A stretch of DNA of 64,000 nucleotides, taken from positions 4,711 to 68,710 of the forward strand of contig CAZYSK010000024.1 in NCBI GenBank assembly GCA_964649415.1. Reading direction: 5' to 3'. Below, piece after piece: positions 26,891 to 49,311 of this stretch. The notes beneath the pieces are model-generated. The model worked only from the letters and a program-made list of their open reading frames with translations. It was not told the DNA's origin and made no database searches. Numbering within the stretch: the stretch's first letter is position 1; each line of letters starts with the position of its first letter. Origin of the DNA: an uncultured Anaerolineales bacterium. Its GTDB lineage: Bacteria > Chloroflexota > Anaerolineae > B4-G1. A program made the translations under genes and the position numbers.

Positions 26891-28129
26891 GTGCGCACTG
26901 GCATTCTCATCGTCGGACTTAGCACACGCGCCATCGCCGAGTCGGCGGTGAGGGGGGGGCATCAGGTCGTCACACTGGACTACTTTGGCGATCGGGATCA
27001 GCGGGAGCTGGTGGAGAACCACGCGCTCCTGCGAGATCCTACACTGATTGGTGAGACCTGCCCCTCCTTCAGCGCCGCAGCACTGGAGCAAGCCAGCCGT
27101 TCTCTTGACTTCGAGTCAGTTGTGTACATCTCCAATCTGGAGAACCATCCCGAGGTGGTTGAAGAACTGGCACAGGGGCGCGTTCTGCTCGGGAACGCGC
27201 CCACTGTGCTCTATCAGGTGCGCGACTGGCGCACGCTGCGGGCCTTCTGCCATGAGGTTGGGGTTGCCTGTCCGCACACGTTGCTAGCTGGAGAGGGGGC
27301 GGCGGCTGACGGGGGCAACCGCTGGCTACGCAAGCCGGTCCGCAGCGGCGGAGGGCACGGCGTCCAGCCGTGGGATGGCAGGCCGTTAGGCCAGTCTCAC
27401 TTCCTGCAGGCGTATGTTGAAGGTCGGCCTGCGTCTGCGGCCTTCGTGGCCGATGGGAAGCGGTGCGTGGTGATCGGCCTGACGGAGCAACTCATTGGGC
27501 GGGGTGAGCTGGGGGCACAGGGCTTCGGCTGGTGTGGCAACATCCTTCCGTTGGCAGGGGGGGACAACGAATCGGGAAAGGAACGAAGGGGGGAAGGGGC
27601 GCAGCGGACTGCGCCTTGGAAGGACGAAGGGCTCGCCGTATTGGAGGAAGTGGAGCGGATGGCTGCTGCGCTCACTCGCCGCTTCGGTTTGCGGGGTGTG
27701 AACGGGCTGGATTTGATCGTGGCGCGCGACCGAGACGGTGGTCCACGCGCGATCCTGGTGGAGGTCAACCCCCGCTACACGGCCTCGATGGAATTGGTCG
27801 AGCGAGCATACGGGCTTAACATCTTCTCGCTGCACGTGGAAGCGATGGACGGTCGATTGCCTGACTTTCGGCTGGCGGAGCACTTGTACGCTCGGGGTCT
27901 GTGGTTTGCCAAAGGGATCGTCTACGCCAGGCGACCGGTGACTATGCCGGAGACAGGCGGGTGGGTGAAACGGGGCAGGCGGGACATTCCCTTCCCCGGC
28001 GAGCGGATCGAGGCTGGCCATCCCGTGTGTACGGTTCTAGCAGAAGGTGAGGGGCGAGATACGTGCTGGCAGCATTTGTTGGCGGGCGTCGCAGACGTCC
28101 GGCAGGAGATCGGAGACCTGACAGAGTGA
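26891..28129 (+). CDS. ATP-grasp domain protein of the C1-cofactor cluster (Orf17/OrfY- or MfnD-like)
   Basis: 412 aa from GTG 26891. ATP-grasp core: WLRKPVRSGGGHGV, FLQAYVEG, GVNGLDLIV, LVEVNPRYTASMEL. It carries the family B insert at 27559-27619. The exact substrate cannot be told from sequence. Confidence 0.7.
   Translation: MRTGILIVGLSTRAIAESAVRGGHQVVTLDYFGDRDQRELVENHALLRDPTLIGETCPSFSAAALEQASRSLDFESVVYISNLENHPEVVEELAQGRVLLGNAPTVLYQVRDWRTLRAFCHEVGVACPHTLLAGEGAAADGGNRWLRKPVRSGGGHGVQPWDGRPLGQSHFLQAYVEGRPASAAFVADGKRCVVIGLTEQLIGRGELGAQGFGWCGNILPLAGGDNESGKERRGEGAQRTAPWKDEGLAVLEEVERMAAALTRRFGLRGVNGLDLIVARDRDGGPRAILVEVNPRYTASMELVERAYGLNIFSLHVEAMDGRLPDFRLAEHLYARGLWFAKGIVYARRPVTMPETGGWVKRGRRDIPFPGERIEAGHPVCTVLAEGEGRDTCWQHLLAGVADVRQEIGDLTE
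27559..27619 (+). repeat. Composite repeat B (module B1 27559-27592 + hairpin module B2 27596-27619), in-frame in the ATP-grasp CDS
   Basis: GGGGGACAACGAATCGGGAAAGGAACGAAGGGGG is identical to 42664-42697. GGGGCGCAGCGGACTGCGCCTTGG is identical to the units at 44644-44742. It is translated as GDNESGKERRGEGAQRTAPW. Confidence 0.85.
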
Positions 28130-35171: not shown

Positions 35172-36126
35172 ACGCGCAGTGGAGATCGTGCGGCGGATGA
35201 TCGCCGACGCGGAGGGATTGGGGTTGGCGGTGACGCGACTGCCGAACGGGACCACGGTGATCGATGCCGGTGTGCGGGTGCCCGGCTCGTTGGAGGCGGG
35301 ACGGCTGTTTGCTGAAGTATGCCTGGGGGGACTTGGCCAGGTTGGTTTCGCTGAGCTCGATTTCGACGACATGTGGCTGCCGGGAGTTTCCGTCTCGGTG
35401 AGCCACCCAGCGGTGGCGTGCATGGCGTCGCAGTATGCGGGGTGGTCGCTCGAGGCCAAGACCGAGAAGGGAAAGTACTTCGCGATGGGCTCCGGTCCAG
35501 CGCGGGCGCTTTACGCCGGGGAGCCGATCTTCGAGCGGCTGGTGATCCGGGACGAAGCCGATGTGGCAGTCCTGGCACTGGAGGGGCACGAGTTGCCGCC
35601 GGAGGTGGCAGCGGACAAGGTGGCCGAGAAGTGCGGGGTCTCTCCCGATGCGCTCTATCTTCTGGTTGCGCCTACCGCCAGCGTGGTGGGCTCGGTGCAG
35701 ATCGCTGCGCGTGTGGTGGAGACTGGGTTGCACAAGATGTTGGAGGTGTGCGACGGGGAAGACCTTGACATCGCTACGGTGGTGTCTGGCTTCGGCACCT
35801 GTCCCCTAGCGCCCGTCGCGGACGACGACCTGCGGGCCATCGGGCGCACCAACGACGCCGTGCTCTACGCTGGTCGGGCATGGTACACGATGAAGGCGGA
35901 CGACGCGCAGATCGAGGAGATGATTGACTGTTTACCCTCGTCGGCGTCACGGGACTACGGAACCTCCTTCTATGAGCTCTATCAGCGCTACAACGGTGAT
36001 TTCTACAAGATTGACCCGCTGCTCTTCAGTCCGGCCGAGGTGTTTATCAACAACCTGGGCAGTGGCCGCACGTTCCACGCCGGGCGCGTCAACGGCCGAA
36101 TGCTAAGGAAGGTGCTTCTGGAGTGA
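35155..36126 (+). CDS. mch: Methenyltetrahydromethanopterin cyclohydrolase
   Basis: 323 aa. Near-collinear with Methylobacterium/archaeal Mch: RMIADAE, LACMASQYAGW, FAMGSGPARA, GSVQIAARVVE, GRTNDA..YGG, SSASRDYG.F.E....YNGDFY.ID..LFSPAEV. Confidence 0.92.
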   Translation: MIGVNERAVEIVRRMIADAEGLGLAVTRLPNGTTVIDAGVRVPGSLEAGRLFAEVCLGGLGQVGFAELDFDDMWLPGVSVSVSHPAVACMASQYAGWSLEAKTEKGKYFAMGSGPARALYAGEPIFERLVIRDEADVAVLALEGHELPPEVAADKVAEKCGVSPDALYLLVAPTASVVGSVQIAARVVETGLHKMLEVCDGEDLDIATVVSGFGTCPLAPVADDDLRAIGRTNDAVLYAGRAWYTMKADDAQIEEMIDCLPSSASRDYGTSFYELYQRYNGDFYKIDPLLFSPAEVFINNLGSGRTFHAGRVNGRMLRKVLLE

Positions 36127-37043
36127 GAATCGGCATTCTTGGGCAGCGGGGGGGCTGGCACGTGCGTGCCCTGCAGCAGGCATTCGCTCGACGGGGCATC
36201 ACCGCCCCCTCGTTTTCTATTACGTGGCTGAAGGCGCGCCTGTCGGCGCGCCCATGGCTGACGGCCCCGGCCGATCAGGCCGACGCGGATGCGGGCATCC
36301 GCCTTCGGGATCTTGACGGAGCAGCACTGGAAAGCTACGACGTCTTGTTCGTGCGCGCGATCCCTGGGGGCTCCTTGGAGCAGATCATCTTCCGCGTGGA
36401 CGCGCTCCATCGCCTGGAAAACGCCGGCGTACGCATCGTCAACTCACCGGCGGCCATTGAGCGCACGGTGGACAAGTACTACACGTCGACGCTCCTGGAG
36501 GATGCGGGTCTGCCCACACCGCGCACAGTGGTCACCGAACGGTTCGCCGATGCGATGGCAGCGTTCCACGAGCTGGGGGGCGACGTTGTGGTCAAGCCCA
36601 TCTTTGGCTCGGAGGGACGGGGCATCGTGCGCGTCTTGGATCCGGACACGGCCTATCGGGTCTTCCGAGCGTTGGAACTGGGCCGCTACGTGTATTATCT
36701 TCAGGAGTTCGTGCCCCACGGCTGCCAGGACGTGCGTGTCTTTGTCGTCGGCCAGGAGGTGGTGGCCGCGATGACGCGCCGGGGAGAGACGTGGAAGACG
36801 AACGTGGCGCAGGGTGCTAAAGGCGAGCCGCTGGCGATCGACGACGAGCTGCGCGCGATGGCCCTCCAGGCAACCCGTGCATTGGGGGCCGATTACGCGG
36901 GCGTGGACATTCTCCCGCTTTCGGGCGGAGGCTATAGTGTGATCGAGGTCAACGGCATCCCCGGTTGGCGCGGTCTTCGGGCTGCGACCGGGGTGGATGC
37001 TGCTGACTGCCTGGTAGAATACGTTCTGGGAGAAGCGCGATGA
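36123..37043 (+). CDS. mptN: RimK-family ATP-grasp ligase, MptN-like (tetrahydromethanopterin:alpha-L-glutamate ligase by context)
   Basis: 306 aa. DKYYTSTLLEDAGLPTP, VVVKPIFGSEGRGI, YLQEFV, DVRVFVVG, GVDILP, VIEVNGIPGWRG. GTG 36123 overlaps the mch stop. Confidence 0.65.
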   Translation: MRIGILGQRGGWHVRALQQAFARRGITAPSFSITWLKARLSARPWLTAPADQADADAGIRLRDLDGAALESYDVLFVRAIPGGSLEQIIFRVDALHRLENAGVRIVNSPAAIERTVDKYYTSTLLEDAGLPTPRTVVTERFADAMAAFHELGGDVVVKPIFGSEGRGIVRVLDPDTAYRVFRALELGRYVYYLQEFVPHGCQDVRVFVVGQEVVAAMTRRGETWKTNVAQGAKGEPLAIDDELRAMALQATRALGADYAGVDILPLSGGGYSVIEVNGIPGWRGLRAATGVDAADCLVEYVLGEAR

Positions 37044-37927
37044 CACCTCTAGGACTGGACAAGATCGCATGGGCTGTCCACATTGCATGCCTGTTCGAGG
37101 TATGTGCCGACAAGCCGGGCAACGTGACCTGGGGCAAGGATTTCTGGGACACGCGCTTTGTCGACTTCCTGGCCAGTGCTATCGCCATTGGGCCTGCCCT
37201 GCGGGACGCGACTCACACCTCCGTTGGCCAGACCATCCTGCGGGCGGTGAACGACACCCACCAATTCGTGAGCACTAATACCAACCTGGGGATGGTCCTT
37301 CTGCTGGCTCCGTTGGCAAAGGCGGCCGGGCGGGGTCATCCCAATGGACTGCGGCTGGCTGTGAGCGAGGTATTGGAGGCGTTGACCGTGGAGGATGCCC
37401 GCTTGACGTTCGAGGCGATCCGCCTTGCCGCTCCGGGGGGCCTGGGCAGCGATGGTCGCTACGACGTGCACAGGGCAGACGTGGACGTGACGCTCAGAGA
37501 AGCTATGCGGGTGGCTCAGGATCGAGATACCGTGGCGCGGGAGTACGTGACGGACTTCGAAGTGACTTTCGAGCTTGGATACGCGACGCTCCGCCGCTTG
37601 TGGGCAGAGGGCCGCGGATTCTCAGAGTCCATTGTCCAGACTTCCCTCACTATCCTGTCGCAGATGCCGGATACGCTGATCGCGCGCAAGGAAGGAATGG
37701 ACGTTGCTTTGGACGTATCGCGGCGCGCCGGTGTCGTGTTACAGCACGGAGGGGCTTTCTCCGAGCAGGGCCGGGCGGCGTTGCGGGCATTCGATCTGTC
37801 GATCCGGGATGACAAACATCGTCTGAATCCGGGCACCACGGCGGACTTGATCGCAGCTTCGCTCTTCGTCTTCCTGACGGAGGGGGGCGCGTTCGAGGAC
37901 TTCCCGGAGTTGCTTGCACGTTGGTGA
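37040..37927 (+). CDS. Triphosphoribosyl-dephospho-CoA synthase (CitG/MdcB)-family protein ('Orf7' of C1 clusters)
   Basis: 295 aa. EVCADKPGNV, TNTNLGMVLLLAPL, DTLIARK, NPGTTADLIAASLF. ATGA overlap with mptN. Confidence 0.7.
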   Translation: MTPLGLDKIAWAVHIACLFEVCADKPGNVTWGKDFWDTRFVDFLASAIAIGPALRDATHTSVGQTILRAVNDTHQFVSTNTNLGMVLLLAPLAKAAGRGHPNGLRLAVSEVLEALTVEDARLTFEAIRLAAPGGLGSDGRYDVHRADVDVTLREAMRVAQDRDTVAREYVTDFEVTFELGYATLRRLWAEGRGFSESIVQTSLTILSQMPDTLIARKEGMDVALDVSRRAGVVLQHGGAFSEQGRAALRAFDLSIRDDKHRLNPGTTADLIAASLFVFLTEGGAFEDFPELLARW

Positions 37928-38003
37928 GGCAGTCGGCAAAGCAGCAAATCGGCAGAGGGGAGATTGTTTGACACGGTCGCGAGGTGCGGGAGGAACATCG
38001 GGT

Positions 38004-39095
38004 ATGGACCGCCGGCATCCTGCCGGCATGACTCGGGCGCACGATACGGGTCCGCAAGGCCCGCGCTTGCTGTGCGAAGGGTTCGCGGTGTTGACGGCAG
38101 ATGGCCTGATCTTCACGGTCAAGGGGTTGGTTCATCCCCCTGAGCGGGTGATCGCGTATCTGCGGTATCTCCCCGATCCAGAGGGCGGTCGGGAGCGCCT
38201 GGGCGTGCGCTACCGGCGCGTCTACCACTTCGAGGAGCAATTGGAAGTGCTCCAGAATCGCTTCCCGCACTATCTGTGGGACGATGAGGTGTTCGGGGTG
38301 CGTTTGCAGAGCGTGCCTCGGCGTTTTGTCCGGGAGGCATTCGATCCCTGCCTCTGCCTGGCTGATCTCCGTGACCGGGGTCCGGCCGACCTGGTCGAGG
38401 AACACGCCCTGGGTCTGTCGGAGCTGCTGAGAGACGTGGCCGGTGTGCCCGGCGAGGATCTGGGTGTCTCGGGGTCGGTGATGGTGGGCACGCACACAGA
38501 GAACTCGGACATTGACCTCCTCGTATATGGTGACGCGTCGGGGCGGGCCGTCCACCGAGCGCTTCAGCGTCTGTTGGATGAGCCGGGGAGGCCCGTGCGT
38601 CGCCTTGACGGGCAGGAGATGGCCGCACTGCACGCCGAGCATCGGCCGGACACCCCACTGTCTTTCGAGGATTTCTCCCGGCTTCAGAATCGCAAGGTCA
38701 ACGAGGGGCGCTATCGGGGGCGGGAGTATTTCATCCGCTTCGTGAAGCGACCATCGGAGGTGAGTGAGCGGTATGGGGATCGCCGCTTTGAGGCACTGGG
38801 GCAGGCCACGATTCGGGCGGAGGTGACGGACGCCCGTGATGCGATTTTCACGCCCTGTCGCTACACCGTCGCAAACGCGACGGTTCTGGATGGCCCGCCC
38901 GCGCCCGACTTGCGCGAGGTGGTCTCCTTTCGGGGGCGCTTCAGCGACCAGGTGCGCGTAGGTGAGTGGGCCATCGCCCGGGGGAGCCTGGAGCGGGTTG
39001 TGGTCGAAGGCGAGCGGGTGTATCATCACCTGGTCGTCGGTGGACAGGCGGGCGACTACGTGCGCCCTGAGCGCGTGACGTCCCCCGTTCAGTAG
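38004..39095 (+). CDS. Pol-beta-superfamily nucleotidyltransferase-like protein with C-terminal OB-like domain (paralog 1)
   Basis: 363 aa from ATG 38004 (GGAGG 10 nt upstream; ORF-track TTG 37914 is an alternative). NTase signature LGVSGSVMVGTHTENSDIDLLVYG. Clearly paralogous to 42119-43303 over its full length. Confidence 0.6.
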   Translation: MDRRHPAGMTRAHDTGPQGPRLLCEGFAVLTADGLIFTVKGLVHPPERVIAYLRYLPDPEGGRERLGVRYRRVYHFEEQLEVLQNRFPHYLWDDEVFGVRLQSVPRRFVREAFDPCLCLADLRDRGPADLVEEHALGLSELLRDVAGVPGEDLGVSGSVMVGTHTENSDIDLLVYGDASGRAVHRALQRLLDEPGRPVRRLDGQEMAALHAEHRPDTPLSFEDFSRLQNRKVNEGRYRGREYFIRFVKRPSEVSERYGDRRFEALGQATIRAEVTDARDAIFTPCRYTVANATVLDGPPAPDLREVVSFRGRFSDQVRVGEWAIARGSLERVVVEGERVYHHLVVGGQAGDYVRPERVTSPVQ

Positions 39096-39128
39096 GGGCG
39101 CGGTTTCCGCGCCCGCCGGAGTGCCAGA

Positions 39129-40070
39129 GTGCCGGAGTTGATGGCTTTGGAGTCTGAAGACAGGGAGTTGGATACGAAACGGGCTGCGCTGAGGGAAACG
39201 TTCGCCGATATGGAGCGCGTGCTGGTCGCCTACTCTGGCGGCGTGGACAGCGCGTTTCTGCTGTGGGCTGCCTTGGACGCGCTGGGCCCGGAGCGTGTGC
39301 TGGCCGTGACCGCTTCCTCGCCCATATTCGCCCGCCGGGAGTTGAGGGCAGCCGAGGACTTGGCGCATCGCTTGGGGGCTCCCCATCGTTTCGTGCGCAC
39401 CATGCAACTGGAGGATGCGGACGTTGCGGACATTCAGGTGGGACGCACTTCAGAAAGTGCGTCCCACCTGGTTGATGGTGCGCCCGTGAAATTCGCGACG
39501 AATCCGCCGGAGCGATGCTATCTTTGCAAGCGGGAGATATTCGCCCGGCTGGTGGAGGTGGCCCGCGAGGAGGAAATACCCTGGGTCGTCGAGGGCTCCA
39601 ACCTGGACGACCGTGACGAGTACCGGCCAGGCACCCGGGCAGTGCGTGAGTTGGACGTGCGAAGCCCGTTGGAGGAGGTCGGACTGACCAAGGCGGACAT
39701 CCGGGCTCTCTCCCGGCGCGTGGGCTTGCCGACGTGGAATCAGCCAGCGCAGACCTGTTTGGCCACGCGCTTCCCGCACGGCACGCCGATCACGCGTGAG
39801 CGGCTGGAGCGGGTGGAGGCCGCTGAGGTGGTGTTGAGGGAGATGGGATTCGGCGAGCTGCGGGTGCGGGATCACGTCGACCCTGCGGCGGGTCCTATCG
39901 CCCGCATCGAGGTGCTCCGTGAGGATGTGGCACGGCTGGCGCGACCGGAAGCCGCGGAACGGGTGGTGGCCGCGCTGCGGGGGCTGGGCTACGACTACGT
40001 CACGTTGGACCTGGGGGGCTACCGGCGCGGTGGCCTCAGTGGGCAGGTTGGTGAAGTAGTAGATTGGTAG
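39129..40070 (+). CDS. larE: LarE, ATP-dependent sulfur transferase of nickel-pincer (NPN) cofactor biosynthesis (PP-loop ATP pyrophosphatase)
   Basis: 313 aa. PP-loop VAYSGGVDSAFL, DDRDEYRPG, CLATRFPHG, RVRDH, YVTLDLGGYRRG. There are three Cys: CYLC 39516-39527 and TGT 39756-39758. It carries the family A insert at 39417-39474. Confidence 0.85.
   Translation: MPELMALESEDRELDTKRAALRETFADMERVLVAYSGGVDSAFLLWAALDALGPERVLAVTASSPIFARRELRAAEDLAHRLGAPHRFVRTMQLEDADVADIQVGRTSESASHLVDGAPVKFATNPPERCYLCKREIFARLVEVAREEEIPWVVEGSNLDDRDEYRPGTRAVRELDVRSPLEEVGLTKADIRALSRRVGLPTWNQPAQTCLATRFPHGTPITRERLERVEAAEVVLREMGFGELRVRDHVDPAAGPIARIEVLREDVARLARPEAAERVVAALRGLGYDYVTLDLGGYRRGGLSGQVGEVVDW
39417..39474 (+). repeat. 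Repeat family A copy 2, in-frame in larE
   Basis: Identical to 34449-34506 and in the same reading frame (ADVADIQVGRTSESASHLV). The hairpin is at 39435-39470. Confidence 0.9.
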
Positions 40071-40131
40071 ATTGGTACATTGGTACATTGGTAGATTGGT
40101 AGATTGGTACATTGGTACATTGGTCAATCGG
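40060..40131. repeat. Octanucleotide tandem array [(TAGATTGG)2(TACATTGG)2]x2 + TCAATCGG
   Basis: Nine 8-nt units from 40060 to 40131. The second unit contains the larE stop codon TAG (40068-40070). The array fills the larE-larB spacer. Confidence 0.9.
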
Positions 40132-40143
40132 AGTGTGATATAG

Positions 40144-40887
40144 ATGGAAGTGAAGTGGTTGCGTGAGTTGTTGGAGAACGTACGAGAGGGCGAGACGGAC
40201 ATAGAGGATGCGTTGGCCCGGTTGCGGGGATTCCCCTACGAGGATCTGGGATTCGCCCGGCTGGACAGCCATCGCACCTTGCGCAAGGGTTTCCCCGAGG
40301 TGATATTCTGCCCGGGCAAGACTACCGGGCAGATCGTGCAGATCGTAGAGCGAATCCGGGCGCGGGAGGGGCGGGTGATGGCGGCGCGCGCCGAGCCAGC
40401 GGTGGCAGATGCGGTACAGCAGGCTTTTCCCGACGCGGTCTATCATCCTGCCGCGCGGATGATCGTCGTCGGTGAGCCGGCCCCCCAGCAGGGACGGGGG
40501 ACGGTGCTTGTGGTCAGCGCGGGCACCGCAGACATCCCGGTGGCCGACGAGGCCGTCGTGACGGCTGGGACGATGGGCAGCCCCGTGGAACGGCTGTACG
40601 ACGTCGGCGTGGCGGGCATTCACCGGCTGCTGGGCAACCGTGACCGCCTGTTCGCCGCCAATGTGCTGGTGGTTGTGGCCGGGATGGAGGGAGCGCTGGC
40701 CAGTGTCGTGGCCGGCCTGGTGGACCGGCCTGTTGTGGCTGTCCCCACCAGTGTCGGCTACGGGGCCAGTTTCGGCGGGTTGTCTGCGCTGCTGACGATG
40801 TTGAATAGCTGCTCACCCGGCGTGTGCACGGTCAACATCGACAATGGGTTTGGGGCGGGATACCTGGCTCACTTGATCAATCAGTGA
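40144..40887 (+). CDS. larB: LarB, NPN cofactor biosynthesis carboxylase/hydrolase (PurE-like)
   Basis: 247 aa. N-terminal LD.HR..R.GFPEVIFCPGKT, then a PurE-like core VLVVSAGTADIPVADEA, VVVAGMEGALASVVAG, VVAVPTSVGYG. Confidence 0.85.
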   Translation: MEVKWLRELLENVREGETDIEDALARLRGFPYEDLGFARLDSHRTLRKGFPEVIFCPGKTTGQIVQIVERIRAREGRVMAARAEPAVADAVQQAFPDAVYHPAARMIVVGEPAPQQGRGTVLVVSAGTADIPVADEAVVTAGTMGSPVERLYDVGVAGIHRLLGNRDRLFAANVLVVVAGMEGALASVVAGLVDRPVVAVPTSVGYGASFGGLSALLTMLNSCSPGVCTVNIDNGFGAGYLAHLINQ

Positions 40888-40915
40888 AAGGATTACTCTC
40901 AACGAGGGGTGACAG

Positions 40916-42115
40916 ATGAGGATTGCATATTTCGATTGCTTCTCGGGTATCAGTGGGAACATGGTTCTGGGGGCGCTGGTGGACGCCGGCCTGGACGTCG
41001 AGCGGTTAAGGGCCGAGTTAGCCCGTCTGCCGGTGTCCGGCTACGAACTGGTCGCCGAGCCGGTGCAGAAACGCGGTCTGCGCGGCACGCACGTCAGCGT
41101 TGAGGTGTCGGAGCACGGGGTGGAGCGTCACCTACATGACATTGAGGAGATCATCGGGGGGAGCGATCTGCCCGATGAGGTCAAGCGCACCGGTCTGGCG
41201 ATATTCCGACGATTGGCGGAGGCGGAGGCGGGGGTGCACGGCATGCCGCTGGATCACGTGCACTTCCACGAAGTGGGAGCGGTGGACGCCATCGTGGACG
41301 TGGTGGGGGCAGCAATTGGACTGTGGCTGATGGGCATAGAGCAGGTCTACGCATCGCCGGTGCACGTGGGATGTGGGACGGTGACGTGTGCCCACGGTAC
41401 ACTGCCGGTGCCTGCCCCGGCGACGCAGGAGCTGCTGCGTGGGGTGCCGATCTATGGGCGGGATGTGGAATCGGAACTGGTGACCCCAACGGGAGCGGCC
41501 ATCCTCACGACGCTGGCCGAGGCGTTTGGGAGCGCGCCCCCGATGCGTGTGGAACAGATGGGCTACGGCGCTGGGACCCGCGATCTGCCGCTGCCTAATC
41601 TGCTGCGCGTCTCGATCGGTGAGGTCGAGGCGGCGTTGGAGGAGATGGAGGGGTACGAGGCGGACGTCATCACCGTCATCGAGACCAACATCGACGACAT
41701 GAACCCACAGTTCTACGAGCACGTGATGGCCAAGTTGTTCGATGCGGGGGCGGTTGACGTGTTCCTGACGCCCATCCAGATGAAGGCGGGACGGCCGGGC
41801 GTGCAGTTGAGTGTGCTCGTGGCCCAGGCGCACGTTGCGGCTGCCACGGAGACCCTGTTCGCTGAGACGAGTACCATCGGGGTGCGGATGGCCTCAATGC
41901 GGCGGTGGAAACTGGGGCGCGAGCGCGTGGTGGTGGAGACGCGCTATGGGCCGATTGGCACGAAGGTGGCCCGGCGTGGGGAGGAAGTGGTGAACGCGGC
42001 TCCGGAGTATCGAGAATGCCGCCGCGTCGCCGAGGAGCTTGGCGTGCCGCTGAAGGACGTGTATCAGGCGGCTACGGAGGCTGTCCGCGCCTATGTCCAG
42101 CAGGAGACGGGTTAA
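40916..42115 (+). CDS. larC: LarC, nickel-inserting cyclometallase of NPN biosynthesis (DUF111)
   Basis: 399 aa in a single frame. MRIAYFDCFSGISGNMVLGALVDAG, HFHEVGAVDAIVDVVG, ETNIDDMNPQ, PIQMKAGRPG. Confidence 0.88.
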   Translation: MRIAYFDCFSGISGNMVLGALVDAGLDVERLRAELARLPVSGYELVAEPVQKRGLRGTHVSVEVSEHGVERHLHDIEEIIGGSDLPDEVKRTGLAIFRRLAEAEAGVHGMPLDHVHFHEVGAVDAIVDVVGAAIGLWLMGIEQVYASPVHVGCGTVTCAHGTLPVPAPATQELLRGVPIYGRDVESELVTPTGAAILTTLAEAFGSAPPMRVEQMGYGAGTRDLPLPNLLRVSIGEVEAALEEMEGYEADVITVIETNIDDMNPQFYEHVMAKLFDAGAVDVFLTPIQMKAGRPGVQLSVLVAQAHVAAATETLFAETSTIGVRMASMRRWKLGRERVVVETRYGPIGTKVARRGEEVVNAAPEYRECRRVAEELGVPLKDVYQAATEAVRAYVQQETG

Positions 42116-42118
42116 GCC

Positions 42119-43303
42119 GTGACAGATATGCAGGAGAGGCGCAAGCCCAAGGACCGGGACTTCCTCCGTACCCGCGAGGGCATGTTCTTCTGTGTGACCG
42201 GTTATCTGCACCCGCCGGATCGGTATACCGCCTATCTCAAGTATTCGCCTGCTGCGTCGGGGAAGTGGCACAATGCGGAGACGGCCTACCAGCGGGAACT
42301 GCCTTACTACCACGTCCGCAGTGTGGAGGATACAATCCAGCATCTGGAGGCGCATTACCCCTGGTACGTCGCGGATTGCCCCGTCCGGAATATCCGCTTC
42401 TCAATGGTGCCCCGGGAATACGTCGCCCGCTACTACGATCCACAGGAGCGGTTGAGGGAGATACTGGCGCATCCTGGCGACTCGCTGGAGGAGGAGGTGT
42501 GTGGTCTGGCGACCGAGATCGCCGAGACCGCCGGCGTGCCCGTCGGCGATCTGGGTATCACGGGATCGATCCTGATCGGATTGCACAACCCGACCTTCTC
42601 GGATATTGATCTGGTGGTGTATGGGCGGCAGAGCGCCCGTCGGGTGCGCCGGGCCTTGGGCGCGGGGGACAACGAATCGGGAAAGGAACGAAGGGGGAGA
42701 GCAGCGCAGTCCGCTGCGCCGCGAATCCGCGAGTTGGGCGCGGCGTTCATCGAGCGCTGGAGCCGGGGAATCGCGGAGCGCTTTCCCTTGACGGTGAGTG
42801 AGGCGCAGTATCTCGCCCGCCGGCGTTGGAACTACGGCTGGTACGGGGAGCGGTATTTCTCGATCCACCCGATCCGCACGGATGACGAGATCACCGAGCA
42901 CTACGGAGATCACATCTACCGCGGCCAGGGAGCCGCACGAATCCGGGCCACCGTTGTCGGCACGAGCGACGCGCTGTTCATGCCCGCCGGGTACCTGCTG
43001 GCGGACGTGGAGGTCTTGGAAGGCCTTGCAGAGGCGGCGGATGTCCGGGAACTGGTCTCCTACGAGGGTCTCTATCGCGACGTGGCCGACGTGGGGCAGA
43101 GAATCGAGGCCAAGGGGAACGTGGAGCGAGTGGACGCGGACATTGCGGACATTGATAGCGCGTCCGTCCGTGCGTCCGCGGCAGACCCTAAAGGTTTCGG
43201 AAAACCTTTAGGGTCTGACATCAGGCTGGTGGTCGGCACGAGCGCCCTCAAGGGTGAGGGGTACATACGGCCGCTTCCCGCCGGGGATAGCGCGGACAAC
43301 TGA
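42119..43303 (+). CDS. Pol-beta-superfamily nucleotidyltransferase-like protein (paralog 2)
   Basis: 394 aa. LGITGSILIGLHNPTFSDIDLVVYG. Collinear with paralog 1 except for two extra segments, which coincide with the repeat elements at 42664-42720 and 43136-43216. Its stop overlaps the next ATG (TGATG). Confidence 0.6.
   Translation: MTDMQERRKPKDRDFLRTREGMFFCVTGYLHPPDRYTAYLKYSPAASGKWHNAETAYQRELPYYHVRSVEDTIQHLEAHYPWYVADCPVRNIRFSMVPREYVARYYDPQERLREILAHPGDSLEEEVCGLATEIAETAGVPVGDLGITGSILIGLHNPTFSDIDLVVYGRQSARRVRRALGAGDNESGKERRGRAAQSAAPRIRELGAAFIERWSRGIAERFPLTVSEAQYLARRRWNYGWYGERYFSIHPIRTDDEITEHYGDHIYRGQGAARIRATVVGTSDALFMPAGYLLADVEVLEGLAEAADVRELVSYEGLYRDVADVGQRIEAKGNVERVDADIADIDSASVRASAADPKGFGKPLGSDIRLVVGTSALKGEGYIRPLPAGDSADN
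42664..42720 (+). repeat. Composite repeat B copy 2 (B1 42664-42697 + B2 hairpin with flipped loop 42704-42719), in-frame
   Basis: B1 is 34/34 identical to 27559-27592. The hairpin is GCGCAG-TCCG-CTGCGC, against GCGCAG-CGGA-CTGCGC in copy 1. It is translated as GDNESGKERRGRAAQSAAP. Confidence 0.85.
43136..43216 (+). repeat. Double hairpin element in-frame in paralog 2: GCGGAC-repeat hairpin (43136-43179) + family F palindrome (43183-43216)
   Basis: GCGGACATTGCGGACATT...GCGTCCGTCCGTGCGTCCGC, then AGACCCTAAAGGTTT-CGGA-AAACCTTTAGGGTCT. It is translated as DADIADIDSASVRASAADPKGFGKPLGSD. Confidence 0.8.
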
Positions 43304-44670
43304 TGGCGGAAGCGGTCTTCCTGATATACGTCGCCACGGTCATGGTGATGGGCGTCAAGGCCAAAGCTAAGACGCTGGAGACGTTCATCCTGGGCGACGT
43401 GCTGGACACGAAGACGATGGTGGCCACAATCGTGTCCACGTTCTACGGCGCGTCTGCCATCCTTGGCGGGGTGAGCCTGACGTACCAGTTGGGGCTGGAC
43501 GTAATCTGGTTCATGGTGCCCTTCTATCTGGGCAACGTGGCCATCATCCTCTTGCTCAAGCGGATCGCTTCCTCAGAAAGGTGCACGCTGCCAGGCTTCC
43601 TGGGCGACTTCTACGGCAATGGGTTCGCTGTGGCAAGTTCGATGCTGTTGGTGACTCTGTGCCTCGTTCCGGAGGAGATCATCGCCGGGGGAAAGATCCT
43701 ATCCCTGTTCACGTCAATGCCCGTGGAGGCGGCGATGGGCGCTATGACCTTCGTGTTGGTGGTGCCTGTTGCCATCGGCGGGATGAAAGCAGACGTGATA
43801 ACGGATATCGCTCAGTTCGCCCTGATGTTGATCATGCTTGGCGTCATGGTGCTGTTCCTCGGCCATACGGGCCGCCTGGGCCTGCAGCCGGACCTGGACT
43901 CGGGTGTCCCGCCCGGGCATCTGACTCTCTGCTCGTCTCTATCGCTGCAGGAAATCGCCGTGTTCTTCGTCTCCTTCTTCTTCCTGCCGATCACCTCAGC
44001 ACCTCTGTACCTGCGCTTCTTTGCCTCGGAGTCAGAAGCGTGCTCCAGGAAATCGGTGCTGTCGTCTGTCGCGATATGGATGGTCGTAGACGCGATCATC
44101 GTGCTCTGCGGCTTCGCGGCCCTGCGGATGTTTCCGAACCTGGACGATCCAGATATGTCGTTCGTCCTGCTTGGGATGGCGATGCCCCCGGTGGGTCGGG
44201 GCGTGTTCACTATAGGGCTGCTGGCCGCGATCATGAGCACGGTGAACTCCTTTCTCCAGTCCGGGGCGTCAAGCCTGGCGCACGACGCATTCAGGCATTT
44301 CATGCCTGGAACCAGTGACCGGCGATTGCTCGCGCTGTCCAGGGTGTTCGTGATTGTGCTGGGCTTGCTGAGCCTGGCGCTGGCTCTGTGGTTCCAGATG
44401 ATCGTGCCGGCGCTGTTGTTCACGTTGAGTATGTGGACGGCCGGGGTGCTGGTTCCCACTCTGGCGGCTCTCAGCGGCGTGCGGTTGAGGAAGCGGTCGG
44501 CGTGGGCCAGTCTGGCGGCCGGGACACTATCCTGTCTGGCCTGGCAGATGGCGCAGCCGTTTCAGGTAGATGCGTTGTTCGTCGGCCTGGGATGCTCTGT
44601 GCTCGCCGCGCTTATCTCGGAAGTCCTGCCCGGTCGCGCTCAGGGGGCGCAGCGGACTGCGCCTTGGTAG
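43303..44670 (+). CDS. Sodium:solute symporter (SSS) family transporter
   Basis: 455 aa with about 12 TM segments. GGMKADVITDIAQF-type motif. The last 8 codons and the stop (GAQRTAPW*) are encoded by repeat unit 1 at 44644. Confidence 0.75.
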   Translation: MAEAVFLIYVATVMVMGVKAKAKTLETFILGDVLDTKTMVATIVSTFYGASAILGGVSLTYQLGLDVIWFMVPFYLGNVAIILLLKRIASSERCTLPGFLGDFYGNGFAVASSMLLVTLCLVPEEIIAGGKILSLFTSMPVEAAMGAMTFVLVVPVAIGGMKADVITDIAQFALMLIMLGVMVLFLGHTGRLGLQPDLDSGVPPGHLTLCSSLSLQEIAVFFVSFFFLPITSAPLYLRFFASESEACSRKSVLSSVAIWMVVDAIIVLCGFAALRMFPNLDDPDMSFVLLGMAMPPVGRGVFTIGLLAAIMSTVNSFLQSGASSLAHDAFRHFMPGTSDRRLLALSRVFVIVLGLLSLALALWFQMIVPALLFTLSMWTAGVLVPTLAALSGVRLRKRSAWASLAAGTLSCLAWQMAQPFQVDALFVGLGCSVLAALISEVLPGRAQGAQRTAPW

Positions 44671-44742
44671 AGGAGCGGGGCGCAGCGGACTGCGCCTTGG
44701 TAGAGGAGCGGGGCGCAGCGGACTGCGCCTTGGTAGAGGAGC
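44644..44742 (+). repeat. Three perfect tandem 33-nt units of hairpin module B2 (GGGGCGCAGCGGACTGCGCCTTGGTAGAGGAGC)
   Basis: Units at 44644-44676, 44677-44709 and 44710-44742, then a degenerate start of a fourth unit. Each has the GGCGCAG-CGGA-CTGCGCC hairpin followed by TTGGTAG. Confidence 0.9.
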
Positions 44743-45611: not shown

Positions 45612-45627
45612 TGATATAGCGAGCCAT

Positions 45628-45735
45628 CATCCCTACAAAGGCGCCGTTCTGACGGCGCACTAACATCCCTACAAAGGCGCCGTTCTGACGGCGCGCTAAC
45701 ATCCCTACAAAGGCGCCGTTCTGACGGCGCGCTAA
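45628..45735. repeat. Three tandem 36-nt units, family C (CATCCCTACAAAGGCGCCGTTCTGACGGCGCRCTAA)
   Basis: Units at 45628-45663, 45664-45699 and 45700-45735, between convergent genes. Hairpin GCGCCGT-TCTG-ACGGCGC with CTAC 3 nt upstream. The last unit supplies the stop codon (45732-45734) of the minus-strand lipoprotein gene. Confidence 0.9.
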
Positions 45736-46608: not shown

Positions 46609-46734
46609 GGGGGCGGCGCGTATGGAAACGCGCCCTACGTTGGCCGATGGTTCGGCGGGGGCGGCGTGTATGGAAACGCGCCCTACGTTGGCTGATGGTT
46701 CGGCGGGGGCGGCGCGTATGGAAACGCGCCCTAC
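46609..46734. repeat. Tandem 48-nt units x2.6, family D (GGGGGCGGCGCGTATGGAAACGCGCCCTACGTTGGCYGATGGTTCGGC)
   Basis: Units at 46609-46656 and 46657-46704, plus a partial unit at 46705-46734. Hairpin GGCGCGT-ATGGAA-ACGCGCC is followed directly by CTAC. The array fills the spacer between the FtsX permease stop and the lipoprotein start. Confidence 0.9.
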
Positions 46735-46749
46735 AGGGATTGGGGATCG

Positions 46750-49311
46750 TCACTCGTATTGCACCGCCCGCACGATGTTGACTTTCGTGGCCCGCCACGC
46801 CGGGTAGAGGGACGCGAGCTGGGAGATGCCCAGCGCGAGGACCGCGCCGACGACAAGCAGGCTCTTGGGCAGGACGAACTCCAGTTCCCAGCCTGAGCTC
46901 TGTGCCATTCCCTGCACGGCGAAGTAAGCCACGTACGTCCCAACCGCCACCCCGAACAGCCCACCGAGGATGCCGATGATCAAGGCCTCGGCCAGGACCA
47001 TCCTGACCACCTGCCAGCGGGTCATGCCGACTGCCCGTAAGATTCCGATCTCCCGGATACGCTCCAGGACGTTCATCGTCATCGTGTTGGTCACGCCCAG
47101 CGTACCGATGACAATGCCGATTCCGACGACGATGTCGAAGAAGGTCATCACCGACATGAACTCCTTCAGCCATCTCTCCCTGTAATCCTGTCCGGACGCC
47201 ACCTCGATGTGCCGGCGCTTGCCGTACTGGTCCTCCATCCGCTGCTGTACCTGGTCGACATCGGCCCCTGGCGCGACGTCCACAACGAAGATGTCGGCCT
47301 TGTCCGTCCTGAAGTAGCGCTGTAGATCTGGCCAAGAGCCTGTGACCGACTGGCCGCCCCACGTATAGTCCGCGATCACGCCGGCCACGGCGAAGTCCTG
47401 TTCTCCACGGGACGTGCGGAGACGGATGGCGTCGCCCTTTCCGAAGTCATACTTCTCGCTCATCAGAGTGGAGATGAACACCGCGTTCCCCTCCACCAGG
47501 CGCTCCACCATCGCCTGCCCATCGCCCTGACCTGAAGCGAACTCGAATTCGCTGATCTGGATGTACTCCAGGGGTTTGACGGCTACAAAGGCGACGTCGT
47601 CGTCCTGGGGGGTGAAGCCCTCGTGTGTCGTGGTCCCCGCCACCTTAGTGTGCTGGTAGCGCATAGGTGTGATCCCGACCACGCCCTCGATGGTCGCCAG
47701 TTCCTCCCGCAGGTCGAGCCGCATGGGTTGGTAGGAGTCTACGAACAGATCCCCCTGCATGGCCGTTTGCATCCAGGCTCTTACGTCAGACGTCATACTC
47801 GTTGATTGCGCACCGATCACGATGAGCATGAGCACGCTCATCGTCAGAGCGCCGGCCGTGACGGTGGTGCGGCCCAGAGCCCGGTTGACGTTGCTGCCCC
47901 CGATCCGCCCCTCGGTGCCGTAGAGGAGGGCGATGGCGGGCCGGGCGAGCCGCTCCAGCAGGCGGATGACGAGGGGGAGGAGCAGCGTGACACCGGCCAG
48001 GAGGACCAGGAAGGTCATCTGGTCAAAGCCCATCTGGGCGACGTCCTCGGGGATGGGAATGAACGACGTGGACTCGGCCAGGAGTATGAGCGCCAGCCCG
48101 ACCTTCCAGCCGTGCCGGATGAGCCAACCTGCCTTGTGCCCTGTGCCTCTGACGGTCAGGGCCTGGATGGGTGAGATACGGCCGGCGCGGATGGCAGGAA
48201 TGAGCGCGCCGCCTATTGTCACTGCCATTCCCACGGCCAGTCCGGCGATGAGGCCGCTGGGTGGCACGGAAAGGGTCCACTCGGTCAATCCAAAGGGCGC
48301 ACTGAGCATGCGCGTCATCGCCAGGGACAGCAGCAGCCCAAGGAGGATGCCGAGGAGAGAGCCTGCGAGCCCTAGAATGAGGGCCTCGGACAGAATGAGG
48401 CGGAAGTTCTGCCCCTTGGTGGCGCCGACTGCCCTGAGCATCCCGATCTCGCGCATGCGCTCCACGACTGTCATCGAGAACGTGTTGAAGATCAGGTACG
48501 CGCCCCCGAACAGGGCTGTGGCGGCGAAGAAGCTGAGCCCCAGGGATATGCCCTCCAGCGCTTCGGTGATGGTCTTGGCCCTGGCGGCGGGGTATAGGGC
48601 TTCGTAGGACGCGCCCACTTCATCCTGGAGCGCGGCCTTCAGCCGATCCAGTGTGCTGGTGGATTGGGCAATCTCTTCCTTGGCGATGATGTCGATGGTG
48701 TCAATCCTGTGTCGCCGTGCAAAGATGTCCTGGGAGTCCGTGAGGGGCATCACGATCTGCGCCCGCCGGGCCGGTCCCTCCTTAGCCATGATGCCCACGA
48801 CCAGGACCTGCTCCGGCCCCTGGGCCCCCAGGAGTGTCACGTTCTCGCCTACCTCGATACCATGCTCGGTGGATAGATCCTTCACGACGATGGCCGTGTA
48901 CTGCCGGGCGGCGGACAGAAAGCTGCCTTCGACCATATGGTATGGGCGCACGCGTGCATCTATCTCCGGGTCGACGCCGTAGACTGTGAGGGCGATCTCT
49001 CTGTCTCCGAGCAAGAGCATGGTTTCGTTGGCGGTGCTGGGCACGGCCAGCGCGACTCCCTCGACGGCTCGAACCTGCTCCAGGAGGCGCTCGTCGAACC
49101 CGTCCTCGGATATGGAGGCGGCCTGGACTGTGAGGTGGGCGGAACCTGCCACGTCGGCGAAGAGGGCTTCGAAGCCGGCGAGTATGCTCTGGTTCGCGAT
49201 GGATATGCTGACAATCGTGGCTACTCCCAATATAATGCCGGCGGCCGTCAGCAGGGTGCGGCTAGGCCTGGTCCAAACGTTTCGGAGAGCTAGCGCGGAC
49301 AGACGTTGCAT
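46750..49311 (-). CDS. ABC transporter permease with two FtsX domains (MacB/YbbP-like)
   Basis: 853 aa. Two FtsX-type 4-TM modules, each preceded by a large extracytoplasmic domain. It lies downstream of the ATPase gene. Confidence 0.85.
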   Translation of the reverse strand: MQRLSALALRNVWTRPSRTLLTAAGIILGVATIVSISIANQSILAGFEALFADVAGSAHLTVQAASISEDGFDERLLEQVRAVEGVALAVPSTANETMLLLGDREIALTVYGVDPEIDARVRPYHMVEGSFLSAARQYTAIVVKDLSTEHGIEVGENVTLLGAQGPEQVLVVGIMAKEGPARRAQIVMPLTDSQDIFARRHRIDTIDIIAKEEIAQSTSTLDRLKAALQDEVGASYEALYPAARAKTITEALEGISLGLSFFAATALFGGAYLIFNTFSMTVVERMREIGMLRAVGATKGQNFRLILSEALILGLAGSLLGILLGLLLSLAMTRMLSAPFGLTEWTLSVPPSGLIAGLAVGMAVTIGGALIPAIRAGRISPIQALTVRGTGHKAGWLIRHGWKVGLALILLAESTSFIPIPEDVAQMGFDQMTFLVLLAGVTLLLPLVIRLLERLARPAIALLYGTEGRIGGSNVNRALGRTTVTAGALTMSVLMLIVIGAQSTSMTSDVRAWMQTAMQGDLFVDSYQPMRLDLREELATIEGVVGITPMRYQHTKVAGTTTHEGFTPQDDDVAFVAVKPLEYIQISEFEFASGQGDGQAMVERLVEGNAVFISTLMSEKYDFGKGDAIRLRTSRGEQDFAVAGVIADYTWGGQSVTGSWPDLQRYFRTDKADIFVVDVAPGADVDQVQQRMEDQYGKRRHIEVASGQDYRERWLKEFMSVMTFFDIVVGIGIVIGTLGVTNTMTMNVLERIREIGILRAVGMTRWQVVRMVLAEALIIGILGGLFGVAVGTYVAYFAVQGMAQSSGWELEFVLPKSLLVVGAVLALGISQLASLYPAWRATKVNIVRAVQYE

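What the first reader, a model, noticed from the sequence alone, without database searches (positions are those of the whole stretch)
42664..42720. Second copy of repeat B with the hairpin loop flipped (CGGA -> TCCG)
In the nucleotidyltransferase paralog 2, module B1 is identical and in the same frame (GDNESGKERRG). The adjoining hairpin, however, is GCGCAG-TCCG-CTGCGC (42704-42719), against GCGCAG-CGGA-CTGCGC at 27599-27614. The stems are the same and the loop is reverse-complemented, which is the signature of the hairpin module being present in the opposite orientation. Paralog 1 lacks the whole segment (VYGDASGRAVHRALQRLLDEPG vs VYGRQSARRVRRALGA[GDNESGKERRGRAAQSAAP]RIRELG). This gives an internal before/after comparison.
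Basis: seen in the sequence. Interest (0 to 1): 0.72.

Follow-up and report, generated by a model that had tools for sequence, protein, structure and literature searches.

The report
In-frame repeat insertion with flipped hairpin
A 57-base mosaic repeat, made of a purine-rich module plus a small GC-rich hairpin of the REP type, sits in frame inside two unrelated enzyme genes of an uncultured Chloroflexota bacterium, and in one copy the four-base hairpin loop is exactly inverted; this is real, but it is a new example of known phenomena rather than a new kind of system.

Summary
Window 42664-42720 and 27559-27615 share a 57-nt block: 34 identical bases (B1, read as GDNESGKERRG in both genes), a 6-nt linker with only 2 of 6 bases matching, then GCGCAG-loop-CTGCGC. 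The loop is CGGA in copy 1 and its exact reverse complement, TCCG, in copy 2.

Sixteen orthologs of the nucleotidyltransferase-like gene lack the block, including one 79-85% identical. Eighteen 70-76% identical ATP-grasp orthologs lack copy 1. AlphaFold2 places copy 2 in a disordered loop of an otherwise confident fold.

The flip is identical in five contigs from JGI and ENA assemblies, so it is neither an assembly error nor a visible polymorphism.

The hairpin belongs to a REP-like family. Three tandem 33-nt units at 44644-44742 carry the same stem-loop plus TTG-GTAG, and their TAG supplies the stop codon of the upstream gene.

Because the stem is a perfect palindrome, a module in opposite orientation and a loop-only inversion give the same sequence. 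Conserved spacing and the absence of inverted flanks mildly favour a loop-only template-switch inversion.

No further coding copy exists among 5.8 billion proteins. Intragenic REPs, Rickettsia RPEs and template-switch loop inversions are all described. Interest is moderate to low.

The parts
42664..42697 (+). B1 module, copy 2: 34-nt purine-rich GGGGGACAACGAATCGGGAAAGGAACGAAGGGGG, translated as GDNESGKERRG
   Evidence: 100% identical to 27559-27592. Absent from all 16 orthologs.
42698..42703 (+). 6-nt linker AGAGCA. Copy 1 has GAAGGG here, so only 2 of 6 bases match.
   Evidence: Read directly. Same length in both copies.
42704..42720 (-). REP-like stem-loop with inverted loop: GCGCAG-TCCG-CTGCGC plus C. 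On the minus strand it reads GGCGCAG-CGGA-CTGCGCt.
   Evidence: 17 nt 100% identical to the reverse complement of the copies at 27598, 44646, 44679 and 44712.
42119..43303 (+). Host gene of copy 2: nucleotidyltransferase-like protein (P0001, 394 aa). The block encodes residues about 182-200.
   Evidence: Pfam NTP_transf_2. AlphaFold2 mean pLDDT is 85, with pLDDT below 50 only at 183-198, 343-365 and the termini.
27559..27615 (+). Copy 1 of the 57-nt block: B1, linker GAAGGG, then GCGCAG-CGGA-CTGCGC-C. It continues with TTGG and GAAG (27616-27622), a degenerate version of the TTG-GTAG tail.
   Evidence: family D2; 24 nt identical to the tandem unit. Net +57 nt against the ortholog L016. Absent from 18 orthologs in A4 and 17 in A3.
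26891..28129 (+). Host gene of copy 1: ATP-grasp_3 protein (P0121, 412 aa)
44644..44742 (+). Three tandem 33-nt units GGGGCGCAGCGGACTGCGCCTTGGTAGAGGAGC, each the same stem-loop plus TTG-GTAG. The first unit's TAG (44668-44670) is the stop codon of the SSF transporter gene, which ends ...GAQRTAPW*.
   Evidence: ENA assemblies carry 2 units instead of 3.
43183..43217 (+). Second, unrelated palindromic repeat inserted in frame in the same gene (family D7, encodes DPKGFGKPLGSD)
   Evidence: Clean net +33 nt against ortholog L004. It lies within the low-pLDDT segment 343-365. Other family copies are at 955-989 and 13587-13621.
37914..39095 (+). Paralog 1 of the nucleotidyltransferase-like gene, which lacks the block
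   Evidence: 36% identity over 322 residues. Alignment A1.

Best explanation
Window 42664-42720 is the second copy of a 57-nt mosaic repeat. It consists of a 34-nt purine-rich module (B1), a 6-nt linker and the 17-18-nt GC-rich stem-loop of the window's own REP-like hairpin family with a GTAG tail.

Shown: the block was acquired in frame by a nucleotidyltransferase-like gene after its lineage split from its closest sequenced relative. It replaced about 18 nt of native sequence, and it is predicted to form a disordered loop of 19 residues.

Inferred: the block is a passenger, selfish or neutral, and does not serve the protein. It persists because it is open in all frames and sits in a variable loop.

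Inferred: the two B copies are related by one copying event of the whole block. The donor is unknown; it could be copy 1, 15 kb upstream on the same strand, or a non-coding master copy.

Inferred and favoured: the loop flip (CGGA to TCCG) arose during or after that copying. In this model the polymerase switches strands within the perfect 6-7-bp stem and back (intra-hairpin template switch), which inverts only the spacer and keeps the stem, its position and the reading frame.
For: Repeat identity and its non-chance nature.

Insertion status of copy 2: all 16 orthologs lack it, including one at 79-85% identity. The DNA alignment shows 62 nt against 23 nt.

Insertion status of copy 1: 18 orthologs at 70-76% identity lack it. 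The net gain against L016 is exactly 57 nt.

Tolerated location: the AlphaFold2 model has mean pLDDT 85, with pLDDT below 50 only at 183-198 (the block), 343-365 (a second repeat insertion) and the termini.

Foreign composition: GC3 is 0.63 in the insert against 0.78 in the rest of the gene.

No stop codon in any of the six frames.

Membership of the hairpin in a REP-like family: the same stem-loop plus TTG-GTAG occurs in a 3-unit tandem array whose TAG ends the upstream gene. The array's copy number differs between assemblies. These are properties described for GTAG REPs, including in Chloroflexi (PMC3733652).

For a loop-only inversion: the stem lies exactly 6 nt from B1 in both copies, and neither the GGG nor the CTTGG-GTAG flank appears inverted around copy 2. 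Loop inversion by template switching is a documented and statistically enriched mutation class (PMC8794818; spacer inversion inside coding sequence, PMC8604942).

Not an artefact: the sequence is identical in 3 JGI and 2 ENA contigs.
Against: The linker differs at 4 of 6 positions although B1 is identical at 34 of 34 and the stems at 12 of 12. A simple 'copy then flip' history does not predict this clustering, and I could not reproduce the linker with a single template switch from either flank.

No pre-flip allele of copy 2 and no pre-insertion allele from a very close relative is available, so neither the order of events nor the donor is known.

Only two B1 copies are known anywhere, so it is unproven that B1 is a repeat family rather than a one-off duplication.

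No transposase was seen in the window. The genome-wide copy number of the hairpin is unknown.

The AlphaFold2 model of the ATP-grasp host of copy 1 failed (pLDDT 36.5), so the loop location of copy 1 rests only on alignment variability at that site.
Confidence: 0.6

Rival explanations
1. Mosaic assembly, as in BIMEs. B1 and the REP hairpin are separate modules. The hairpin was inserted next to B1 independently in the two copies, once in each orientation, for example by a RAYT or IS200/IS605-type single-strand transposase encoded elsewhere in the genome.
For: REPs are known to occur in both orientations as head-head, tail-tail and head-tail dimers, and to join unrelated motifs into mosaic structures (PMC3733652).

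The hairpin also occurs without B1, in the array at 44644-44742.

The linker between B1 and the hairpin is poorly conserved, 2 of 6 bases, as expected for independent junctions.

Another palindrome family in the window also shows an apparently inverted loop: 955-989 has CTCCGA where 43183 has TCGGAA.
Against: The stem lies at exactly the same distance (6 nt) from B1 in both copies.

The family's asymmetric flanks, including the GTAG tail, are not present in inverted form at copy 2.

No Y1 transposase or other transposase is present among the window's genes.

Only two B1 copies exist, and both already carry the hairpin.
Confidence: 0.27
2. The hairpin is a functional, reversible element: either a programmed DNA inversion that switches the encoded loop (AAQRTAP or AAQSAAP), or an RNA-level regulatory hairpin whose orientation matters.
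For: The stem-loop is stable. The DNA fold gives a 7-bp stem in copy 1 and a 9-bp stem with one G-T pair on the minus strand of copy 2. The flip preserves the reading frame.
Against: All five contigs from different samples and assemblers carry the same state.

The arms are only 6-7 bp, and no recombinase gene lies nearby.

There is no terminator-like or promoter-like signal at the site and no Rfam match.

The encoded segment is predicted to be disordered and is absent from all orthologs.
Confidence: 0.04
3. Sequencing or assembly artefact, or a chance resemblance.
For: The source is a short-read metagenome assembly, and hairpins can cause local misassembly.
Against: The sequence is identical in 3 JGI contigs and 2 ENA MEGAHIT contigs. 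Shuffles give 0.00 expected matches. The reading frame is intact, and the flip is an exact 4-of-4 reverse complement.
Confidence: 0.01

Closest known systems
GTAG-tagged REP elements (repetitive extragenic palindromes; Di Nocera, De Gregorio and Rocco 2013, PMC3733652), including intragenic REPs and the clustered GTAG-23 family of the Chloroflexi member Thermomicrobium roseum
   Same: Short GC-rich stem-loop (7 bp with a 4-nt loop). GTAG tail on the tandem copies. Tandem clustering downstream of genes. The TAG of the tail supplies the stop codon of the upstream ORF. Copies occur inside ORFs and encode extra residues. Several hairpin families coexist in one genome. Copy number varies between strains.
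   Different: Copy 2 has no recognisable GTAG tail, and copy 1 has GAAG. A 3-nt spacer separates stem and tail. The hairpin is fused to a 34-nt non-palindromic module. Genome-wide abundance and any RAYT partner are unknown.
Rickettsia palindromic elements (RPE; Ogata et al. 2000, as summarised in PMC10969869 and PMC3733652)
   Same: Repeats inserted in frame into unrelated, apparently functional enzyme genes, at sites compatible with the protein fold, with the same peptide appearing in different proteins. The same gene can carry two insertions.
   Different: RPEs are about 100-150 bp and palindromic overall, and they belong to the CGTC-tagged group in an obligate intracellular alphaproteobacterium. 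Here the block is 57 nt, only its last third is palindromic, and the host is a free-living Chloroflexota.
BIMEs (bacterial interspersed mosaic elements of enterobacteria); from my own knowledge of Gilson and colleagues' work
   Same: A mosaic architecture in which a REP hairpin can occur in either orientation, combined with conserved non-palindromic motifs.
   Different: BIMEs are extragenic and high-copy. No sequence similarity.
Template-switch mutations at hairpins: loop or spacer inversion (Monttinen and Loytynoja 2022, PMC8794818; yeast coding-sequence cases, PMC8604942; quasipalindrome mutagenesis in E. coli, PMC7202029)
   Same: Perfect inverted arms, with the loop replaced by its exact reverse complement and its length maintained, inside a coding sequence and preserving the frame.
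   Different: The ancestral state is not observed here. The inversion sits in a repeat copy rather than in a conserved RNA or native gene segment.

Membership tests
GTAG-type REP | Short palindromic stem-loop: stem 6-13 bp, GC-rich, short loop | tested here: met
   GGCGCAG-CGGA-CTGCGCC, 7 bp with a 4-nt loop, at 27598, 44646, 44679 and 44712. Copy 2 has 6 perfect bp plus an A/C mismatch.
GTAG-type REP | GTAG (or degenerate) tetranucleotide at one end | tested here: inconclusive
   Present 3 nt after the stem in all three tandem units (44667-44670 and the two following units). It is GAAG in copy 1 (27619-22). It is absent on either side and either strand of copy 2.
GTAG-type REP | Many dispersed or clustered copies per genome | not testable with these tools
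   5 copies at 3 loci in 64 kb and none in a further 8 kb of the contig. The rest of the genome could not be retrieved, and the genome is not in genome contigs.
GTAG-type REP | Association with a RAYT (Y1 HUH transposase) gene | not testable with these tools
   No Y1_Tnp or other transposase among the window's genes or in 8 kb beyond. The remainder of the genome was not seen.
GTAG-type REP | Typical position downstream of ORFs, with the tail supplying the TAG stop | tested here: met
   The SSF gene 43303-44670 ends at the TAG of the first 33-nt unit. This does not apply to copies 1 and 2, which are intragenic.
Rickettsia palindromic element (RPE) | In-frame insertion in unrelated protein-coding genes that remain intact | tested here: met
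   Six-frame openness.
Rickettsia palindromic element (RPE) | Element of about 100-150 bp that is palindromic over its whole length, with a CGTC tag and homology to RPE families | tested here: not met
   The block is 57 nt. B1 has no complementary arm in the window, and the block contains no CGTC.
MITE | Terminal inverted repeats and a target-site duplication | tested here: not met
   There is no TIR between the block ends. The candidate direct repeats (CGAATC around copy 2, CGAAGGG and TTGGNAGG around copy 1) do not give consistent pre-insertion sequences when compared with L004 and L016.
Template-switch loop inversion | Perfect inverted arms, with the loop replaced by its exact reverse complement at unchanged length and position | tested here: met
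   CGGA to TCCG between identical 6-bp arms, at the same distance from B1.
Template-switch loop inversion | Ancestral (uninverted) state at the same locus, shown by an outgroup | not testable with these tools
   The closest relative (L004) lacks the whole block. The 90%-identity cluster holds only the same sequence.
Site-specific invertible DNA switch | Both orientations present in the population, with a recombinase nearby | tested here: not met
   Five contigs all carry the same state. There is no recombinase gene in the window.

The most novel reading that the evidence does not exclude
This Chloroflexota lineage may carry an active, RPE-like process on a smaller scale. In it, several families of REP-type hairpins and mosaic modules of 33-78 nt are written in frame into housekeeping and C1-pathway enzyme genes, adding disordered loops.

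The window holds at least five such insertions: B twice, the 78-nt repeat in the FhcC-like and LarE-like genes, and the 35-nt palindrome in the nucleotidyltransferase-like gene. Orthologs in related organisms show other lineage-specific inserts at the same and other sites.

Under this reading, the flipped loop records a single-strand, hairpin-mediated copying mechanism, and the 24-nt B1 core shared with other Anaerolineales marks a wider element family.
Probability: 0.3. Interest if true: 0.6.

Novelty: new member of a known kind. Interest (0 to 1): 0.35.

Why it matters
If the general pattern holds, this uncultured Chloroflexota clade would be a second, free-living and GC-rich example of small palindromic repeats colonising coding sequence, alongside Rickettsia. 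It would offer clean before/after pairs for asking how proteins tolerate and perhaps exploit such insertions.

The flipped loop itself is a small, well-defined example of hairpin-mediated inversion inside a translated repeat. It does not open a new question, because each ingredient (intragenic REPs, REPs in both orientations, template-switch loop inversion) is already described.

Tried and rejected
(1) Exact scans of genome contigs and metagenome contigs with the 20-nt B1 core found no further copy of B. They found only a related 20-24-nt motif in non-coding DNA of other Anaerolineales MAGs. The window's own genome is not in those collections.

(2) I searched a six-frame translation of both B copies against 5.8 billion proteins. 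Only the two window proteins were returned. A match to B1 alone, 11 residues, would have been below the threshold.

(3) Rfam gave nothing at gathering threshold on the window and loci, or at E-value threshold around copy 2 and the MAG loci. There are no tRNAs.

(4) The promoter and terminator scan found nothing at the site.

(5) The AlphaFold2 model of the ATP-grasp host of copy 1 had pLDDT 36.5 and was unusable. The PDB profile search gave only a weak hit to 3df7, which places the site between a strand and a helix.

(6) A Foldseek search of the P0001 model against PDB found no whole-protein match.

(7) I looked for target-site duplications and microhomology. Short direct repeats exist: CGAATC at 42673 and 42722, and CGAAGGG and TTGGNAGG around copy 1. 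They are in different frames and do not reconstruct the ortholog sequence, so I do not count them as evidence.

(8) I tried to explain the diverged linker as part of a larger inverted segment or a single template switch from either flank. Neither orientation matches better than the other.

(9) Six-frame openness is not special: 8% of all 57-mers in the window are open in all six frames.

(10) Paralog 1 is too diverged (36% identity) to serve as the 'before' state.

Full report
**Observation.** The two cited sites read as described.
- A 34-nt purine-rich segment, GGGGGACAACGAATCGGGAAAGGAACGAAGGGGG, is identical at 27559-27592 and 42664-42697. Shuffles give 0.00 expected matches to its 27-nt core.
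- Six bases after it, both copies carry GCGCAG-NNNN-CTGCGC followed by C.
- That pattern occurs five times in the window against 0.00 expected. The loop is CGGA at 27599, 44647, 44680 and 44713, and TCCG only at 42704.
- TCCG is the exact reverse complement of CGGA. On the minus strand, copy 2 matches the 18-nt consensus with one mismatch.
- The shared block is 57 nt long, and the finding's coordinates 42664-42720 delimit it exactly.
- Differences within the block are strongly clustered: 0 of 34 in B1, 4 of 6 in the linker (GAAGGG against AGAGCA), 0 of 12 in the stem arms and 4 of 4 in the loop.

**Host genes and reading frame.**
- Copy 1 lies in an ATP-grasp_3 gene (26891-28129).
- Copy 2 lies in a nucleotidyltransferase-like gene (42119-43303).
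- Both copies are read in the same frame as GDNESGKERRG.
- Neither copy has a stop codon in any of the six frames. This holds for 8% of all 57-mers in the window, so it is not remarkable.
- The surrounding genes form an H4MPT/methanofuran-type C1 cluster with LarB-, LarC- and LarE-like genes.
- Protein relatives are annotated as Anaerolineae or Chloroflexi MAGs.

**Is it an insertion?**
It is a weak control.
- Orthologs settle the question. In an alignment of 16 orthologs, including P0002 at 79-85% identity, none has the segment. The window protein has 13 extra columns, and the following eight residues are replaced.
- At the DNA level, against the ortholog contig L004 (86% identity), 62 nt in the window stand where L004 has 23 nt. 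That is a net gain of 39 nt: the 57-nt block minus about 18 nt of lost native sequence.
- For copy 1, 18 orthologs at 70-76% identity read NILPL-A[LM]xPAE[RG]-xxVLE where the window reads NILPL-AGGDNESGKERRGEGAQRTAPWKDEG-LAVLE.
- Against contig L016 the net gain for copy 1 is exactly 57 nt.
- Both copies are therefore lineage-specific insertions into variable loops.
- An AlphaFold2 model of the copy-2 host is confident overall (mean pLDDT 85.2, pTM 0.84). It falls below pLDDT 50 only at residues 183-198 (the block), at 343-365 and at the termini.
- Third-position GC is 0.63 in the insert against 0.78 in the rest of the gene.
- The model for the copy-1 host failed (pLDDT 36.5).

**Artefact or polymorphism?** The window is identical to JGI contig Ga0309772_1000138 (sample 3300029258) over the 21 kb checked.
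- The same two proteins occur on three JGI contigs and two ENA contigs. They differ only in how the start codon was translated.
- The ENA DNA is identical through the block, including TCCG.
- The only differences nearby are two rather than three units of the 33-nt tandem repeat at 44644, and a 6-nt indel in the LarC gene in one assembly.
- The flip is therefore real and fixed in all available assemblies. There is no sign of an active switch.

**What the hairpin is.** The same stem-loop forms three perfect tandem 33-nt units at 44644-44742, GGGGCGCAGCGGACTGCGCC-TTG-GTAG-AGGAGC.
- The TAG of the first unit's GTAG (44668-44670) is the stop codon of the upstream SSF transporter gene. That gene therefore ends ...GAQRTAPW*, the same peptide and frame as in copy 1 (...GAQRTAPWK...).
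- Copy 1 shares 24 nt with the unit, up to TTGG. It has GAAG where the unit has GTAG, which removes what would be an in-frame stop.
- The next two intergenic regions hold three-unit arrays of other GC-rich hairpins associated with GTAG or CTAC (45619-45735, 46609-46752). An array of (TTGGTAGA/TTGGTACA)n lies at 40040-40135.
- These properties match the GTAG-tagged REP superfamily of Di Nocera et al. (PMC3733652). That family has 6-13-bp stems, short loops and a GTAG tail, sometimes after unpaired bases. It forms tandem clusters, its TAG often serves as a stop codon, it occurs in Chloroflexi, and copies inside ORFs encode extra residues.
- No Y1 transposase or any other transposase gene is present in the window or in the next 8 kb.

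**What B1 is.** B1 is not palindromic, and it has no further copy in the window, in 8 kb of extra contig or in the relatives' loci.
- A six-frame peptide query built from both B copies found only the two window proteins among 5.8 billion.
- Exact scans of the genome and metagenome collections with its 20-nt core found no other B.
- Those scans did find the 20-24-nt core ACAACGAATCGGGAAAGGAACGAA in non-coding DNA of three unrelated loci of other Anaerolineales MAGs.
- In one of these loci the core is the 5' arm of a roughly 115-nt imperfect hairpin. B1 may therefore derive from an arm of a wider palindromic element family. This is a lead, not a result.

**Orientation or loop-only inversion?** Because the stem is a perfect palindrome, a module inserted in the opposite orientation and an inversion of the loop alone produce the same 16 nt.
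- Only the flanks are asymmetric: GGG upstream and CTTGG-[G/T]AG downstream in the other four copies.
- Around copy 2, neither orientation of these flanks is recognisable. The right flank is native gene sequence that is conserved in L004.
- The stem lies exactly 6 nt from B1 in both copies. This is expected if the block was copied as a unit and only the stem-loop was inverted, and it would be a coincidence if the hairpin had been inserted twice independently.
- Loop or spacer inversion by intra-hairpin template switching during replication is a documented mutation class (PMC8794818; PMC8604942 and PMC7202029).
- Against a simple 'copy then flip' history, the linker differs at 4 of 6 positions, and I could not derive it from a single switch.
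- I therefore favour loop-only inversion (about 0.55-0.6) over independent mosaic assembly in the opposite orientation (about 0.25-0.3).
- A programmed switch, a regulatory RNA hairpin or an artefact are unlikely.

**Context: not an isolated case.**
- The same gene carries a second, unrelated 35-nt palindrome at 43183-43217. It is a clean net +33 nt against L004 and coincides with the second low-confidence segment.
- A 78-nt hairpin-containing repeat lies inside the FhcC-like gene (34441-34518) and the LarE-like gene (39409-39486).
- The LarE alignment to PDB LarE breaks at exactly that place, with about 23 extra residues in the window protein.
- ATP-grasp orthologs from related organisms show their own lineage-specific inserts. 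One of them, NPKGFRKPLGF in P0333, resembles the peptide encoded by the window's 35-nt palindrome.
- In-frame colonisation of enzyme genes by small hairpin repeats therefore seems common in this clade. It is reminiscent of Rickettsia RPEs (PMC10969869) but with much shorter elements.

**Comparison and verdict.** The element works like an intragenic REP or RPE: a translated, tolerated passenger in a surface loop.
- It meets the structural REP criteria. Its GTAG tail is degenerate in copy 1 and absent in copy 2, and copy number and RAYT association could not be tested.
- It is not an RPE in the strict sense, given its length, lack of overall palindromy and tag.
- It is not a MITE, because it has no TIR or target-site duplication.
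- The loop flip matches the signature of a template-switch inversion, but the ancestral state is not available.
- I rate it a new member of a known kind, with moderate to low interest (0.35).
- The wider pattern of many in-frame hairpin insertions in a Chloroflexota C1-metabolism cluster is the more interesting lead.

Noticed in passing
window 43183-43217 (also 13587-13621 and 955-989): A 35-nt perfect palindrome, CAG-ACCCTAAAGGTTT-CGGA-AAACCTTTAGGGT-CTG, is inserted in frame in the same nucleotidyltransferase-like gene and encodes DPKGFGKPLGSD. It is a clean net +33 nt against ortholog L004. A similar peptide, NPKGFRKPLGF, occurs in an ATP-grasp ortholog of another organism (P0333). The copy at 955-989 has a loop close to the reverse complement of the others.
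   Followed up: partly
window 34441-34518 and 39409-39486: A 78-nt repeat (92% identical copies) with a 16-bp hairpin, CAGGTGGGACGCACTT-CAGA-AAGTGCGTCCCACCTG, lies inside the FhcC-like (GXGXG) and LarE-like genes. The LarE alignment to PDB 6b2o/5udq breaks there, with about 23 extra residues in the window protein. Its flanks (GCGGACRTTGCGGACATT ... GTGCGTCCG) also appear around the palindrome at 43134-43180.
   Followed up: partly
window 44644-44742, 45619-45735 and 46609-46752: Three consecutive intergenic regions each hold a three-unit tandem array of a different GC-rich hairpin with a GTAG or CTAC tag (periods 33, 36 and 48 nt). Two ENA assemblies of the same organism have 2 instead of 3 units of the 33-nt array.
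   Followed up: partly
window 40040-40135: About 12 tandem copies of the octamer TTGGTAGA/TTGGTACA lie between the LarE-like and LarB-like genes. The octamer equals the spacer plus GTAG tail of the 33-nt hairpin unit.
   Followed up: no
L003 1320-1343 (= L007, L008, L009), L001 1140-1159, L010 897-916: The 20-24-nt core of B1 (ACAACGAATCGGGAAAGGAACGAA) occurs exactly in non-coding DNA of other Anaerolineales MAGs. In L007 it is the 5' arm of a roughly 115-nt imperfect hairpin with ends CACTACAACGAAT / ATTCGCTGTAGTG (RNA MFE -48 kcal/mol). There is no Rfam match.
   Followed up: partly
window 25700-43300: The gene cluster encodes an H4MPT/methanofuran-type C1 pathway (Mpt_N, FTR, MCH, Fhc/Fwd-like subunits, CitG, RimK-like and ATP-grasp_3 ligases, DUF6513 pterin-binding). 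It also holds two paralogous nucleotidyltransferase-like genes and LarE-, LarB- and LarC-like genes, in a Chloroflexota MAG. The nucleotidyltransferase-like protein has no whole-protein match in the PDB by fold.
   Followed up: no
window 41215-41220: One ENA assembly (ERZ27256778) lacks the 6 nt GGCGGA in the LarC-like gene, giving 397 residues instead of 399.
   Followed up: no
alignment A4 (ATP-grasp orthologs): Several orthologs from related organisms carry their own short lineage-specific inserts. P0285 and P0291 have GLAVTDPPLRGG at the same loop as copy 1. P0333, P0318 and P0284 have inserts elsewhere. This suggests the phenomenon is widespread in the clade.
   Followed up: no
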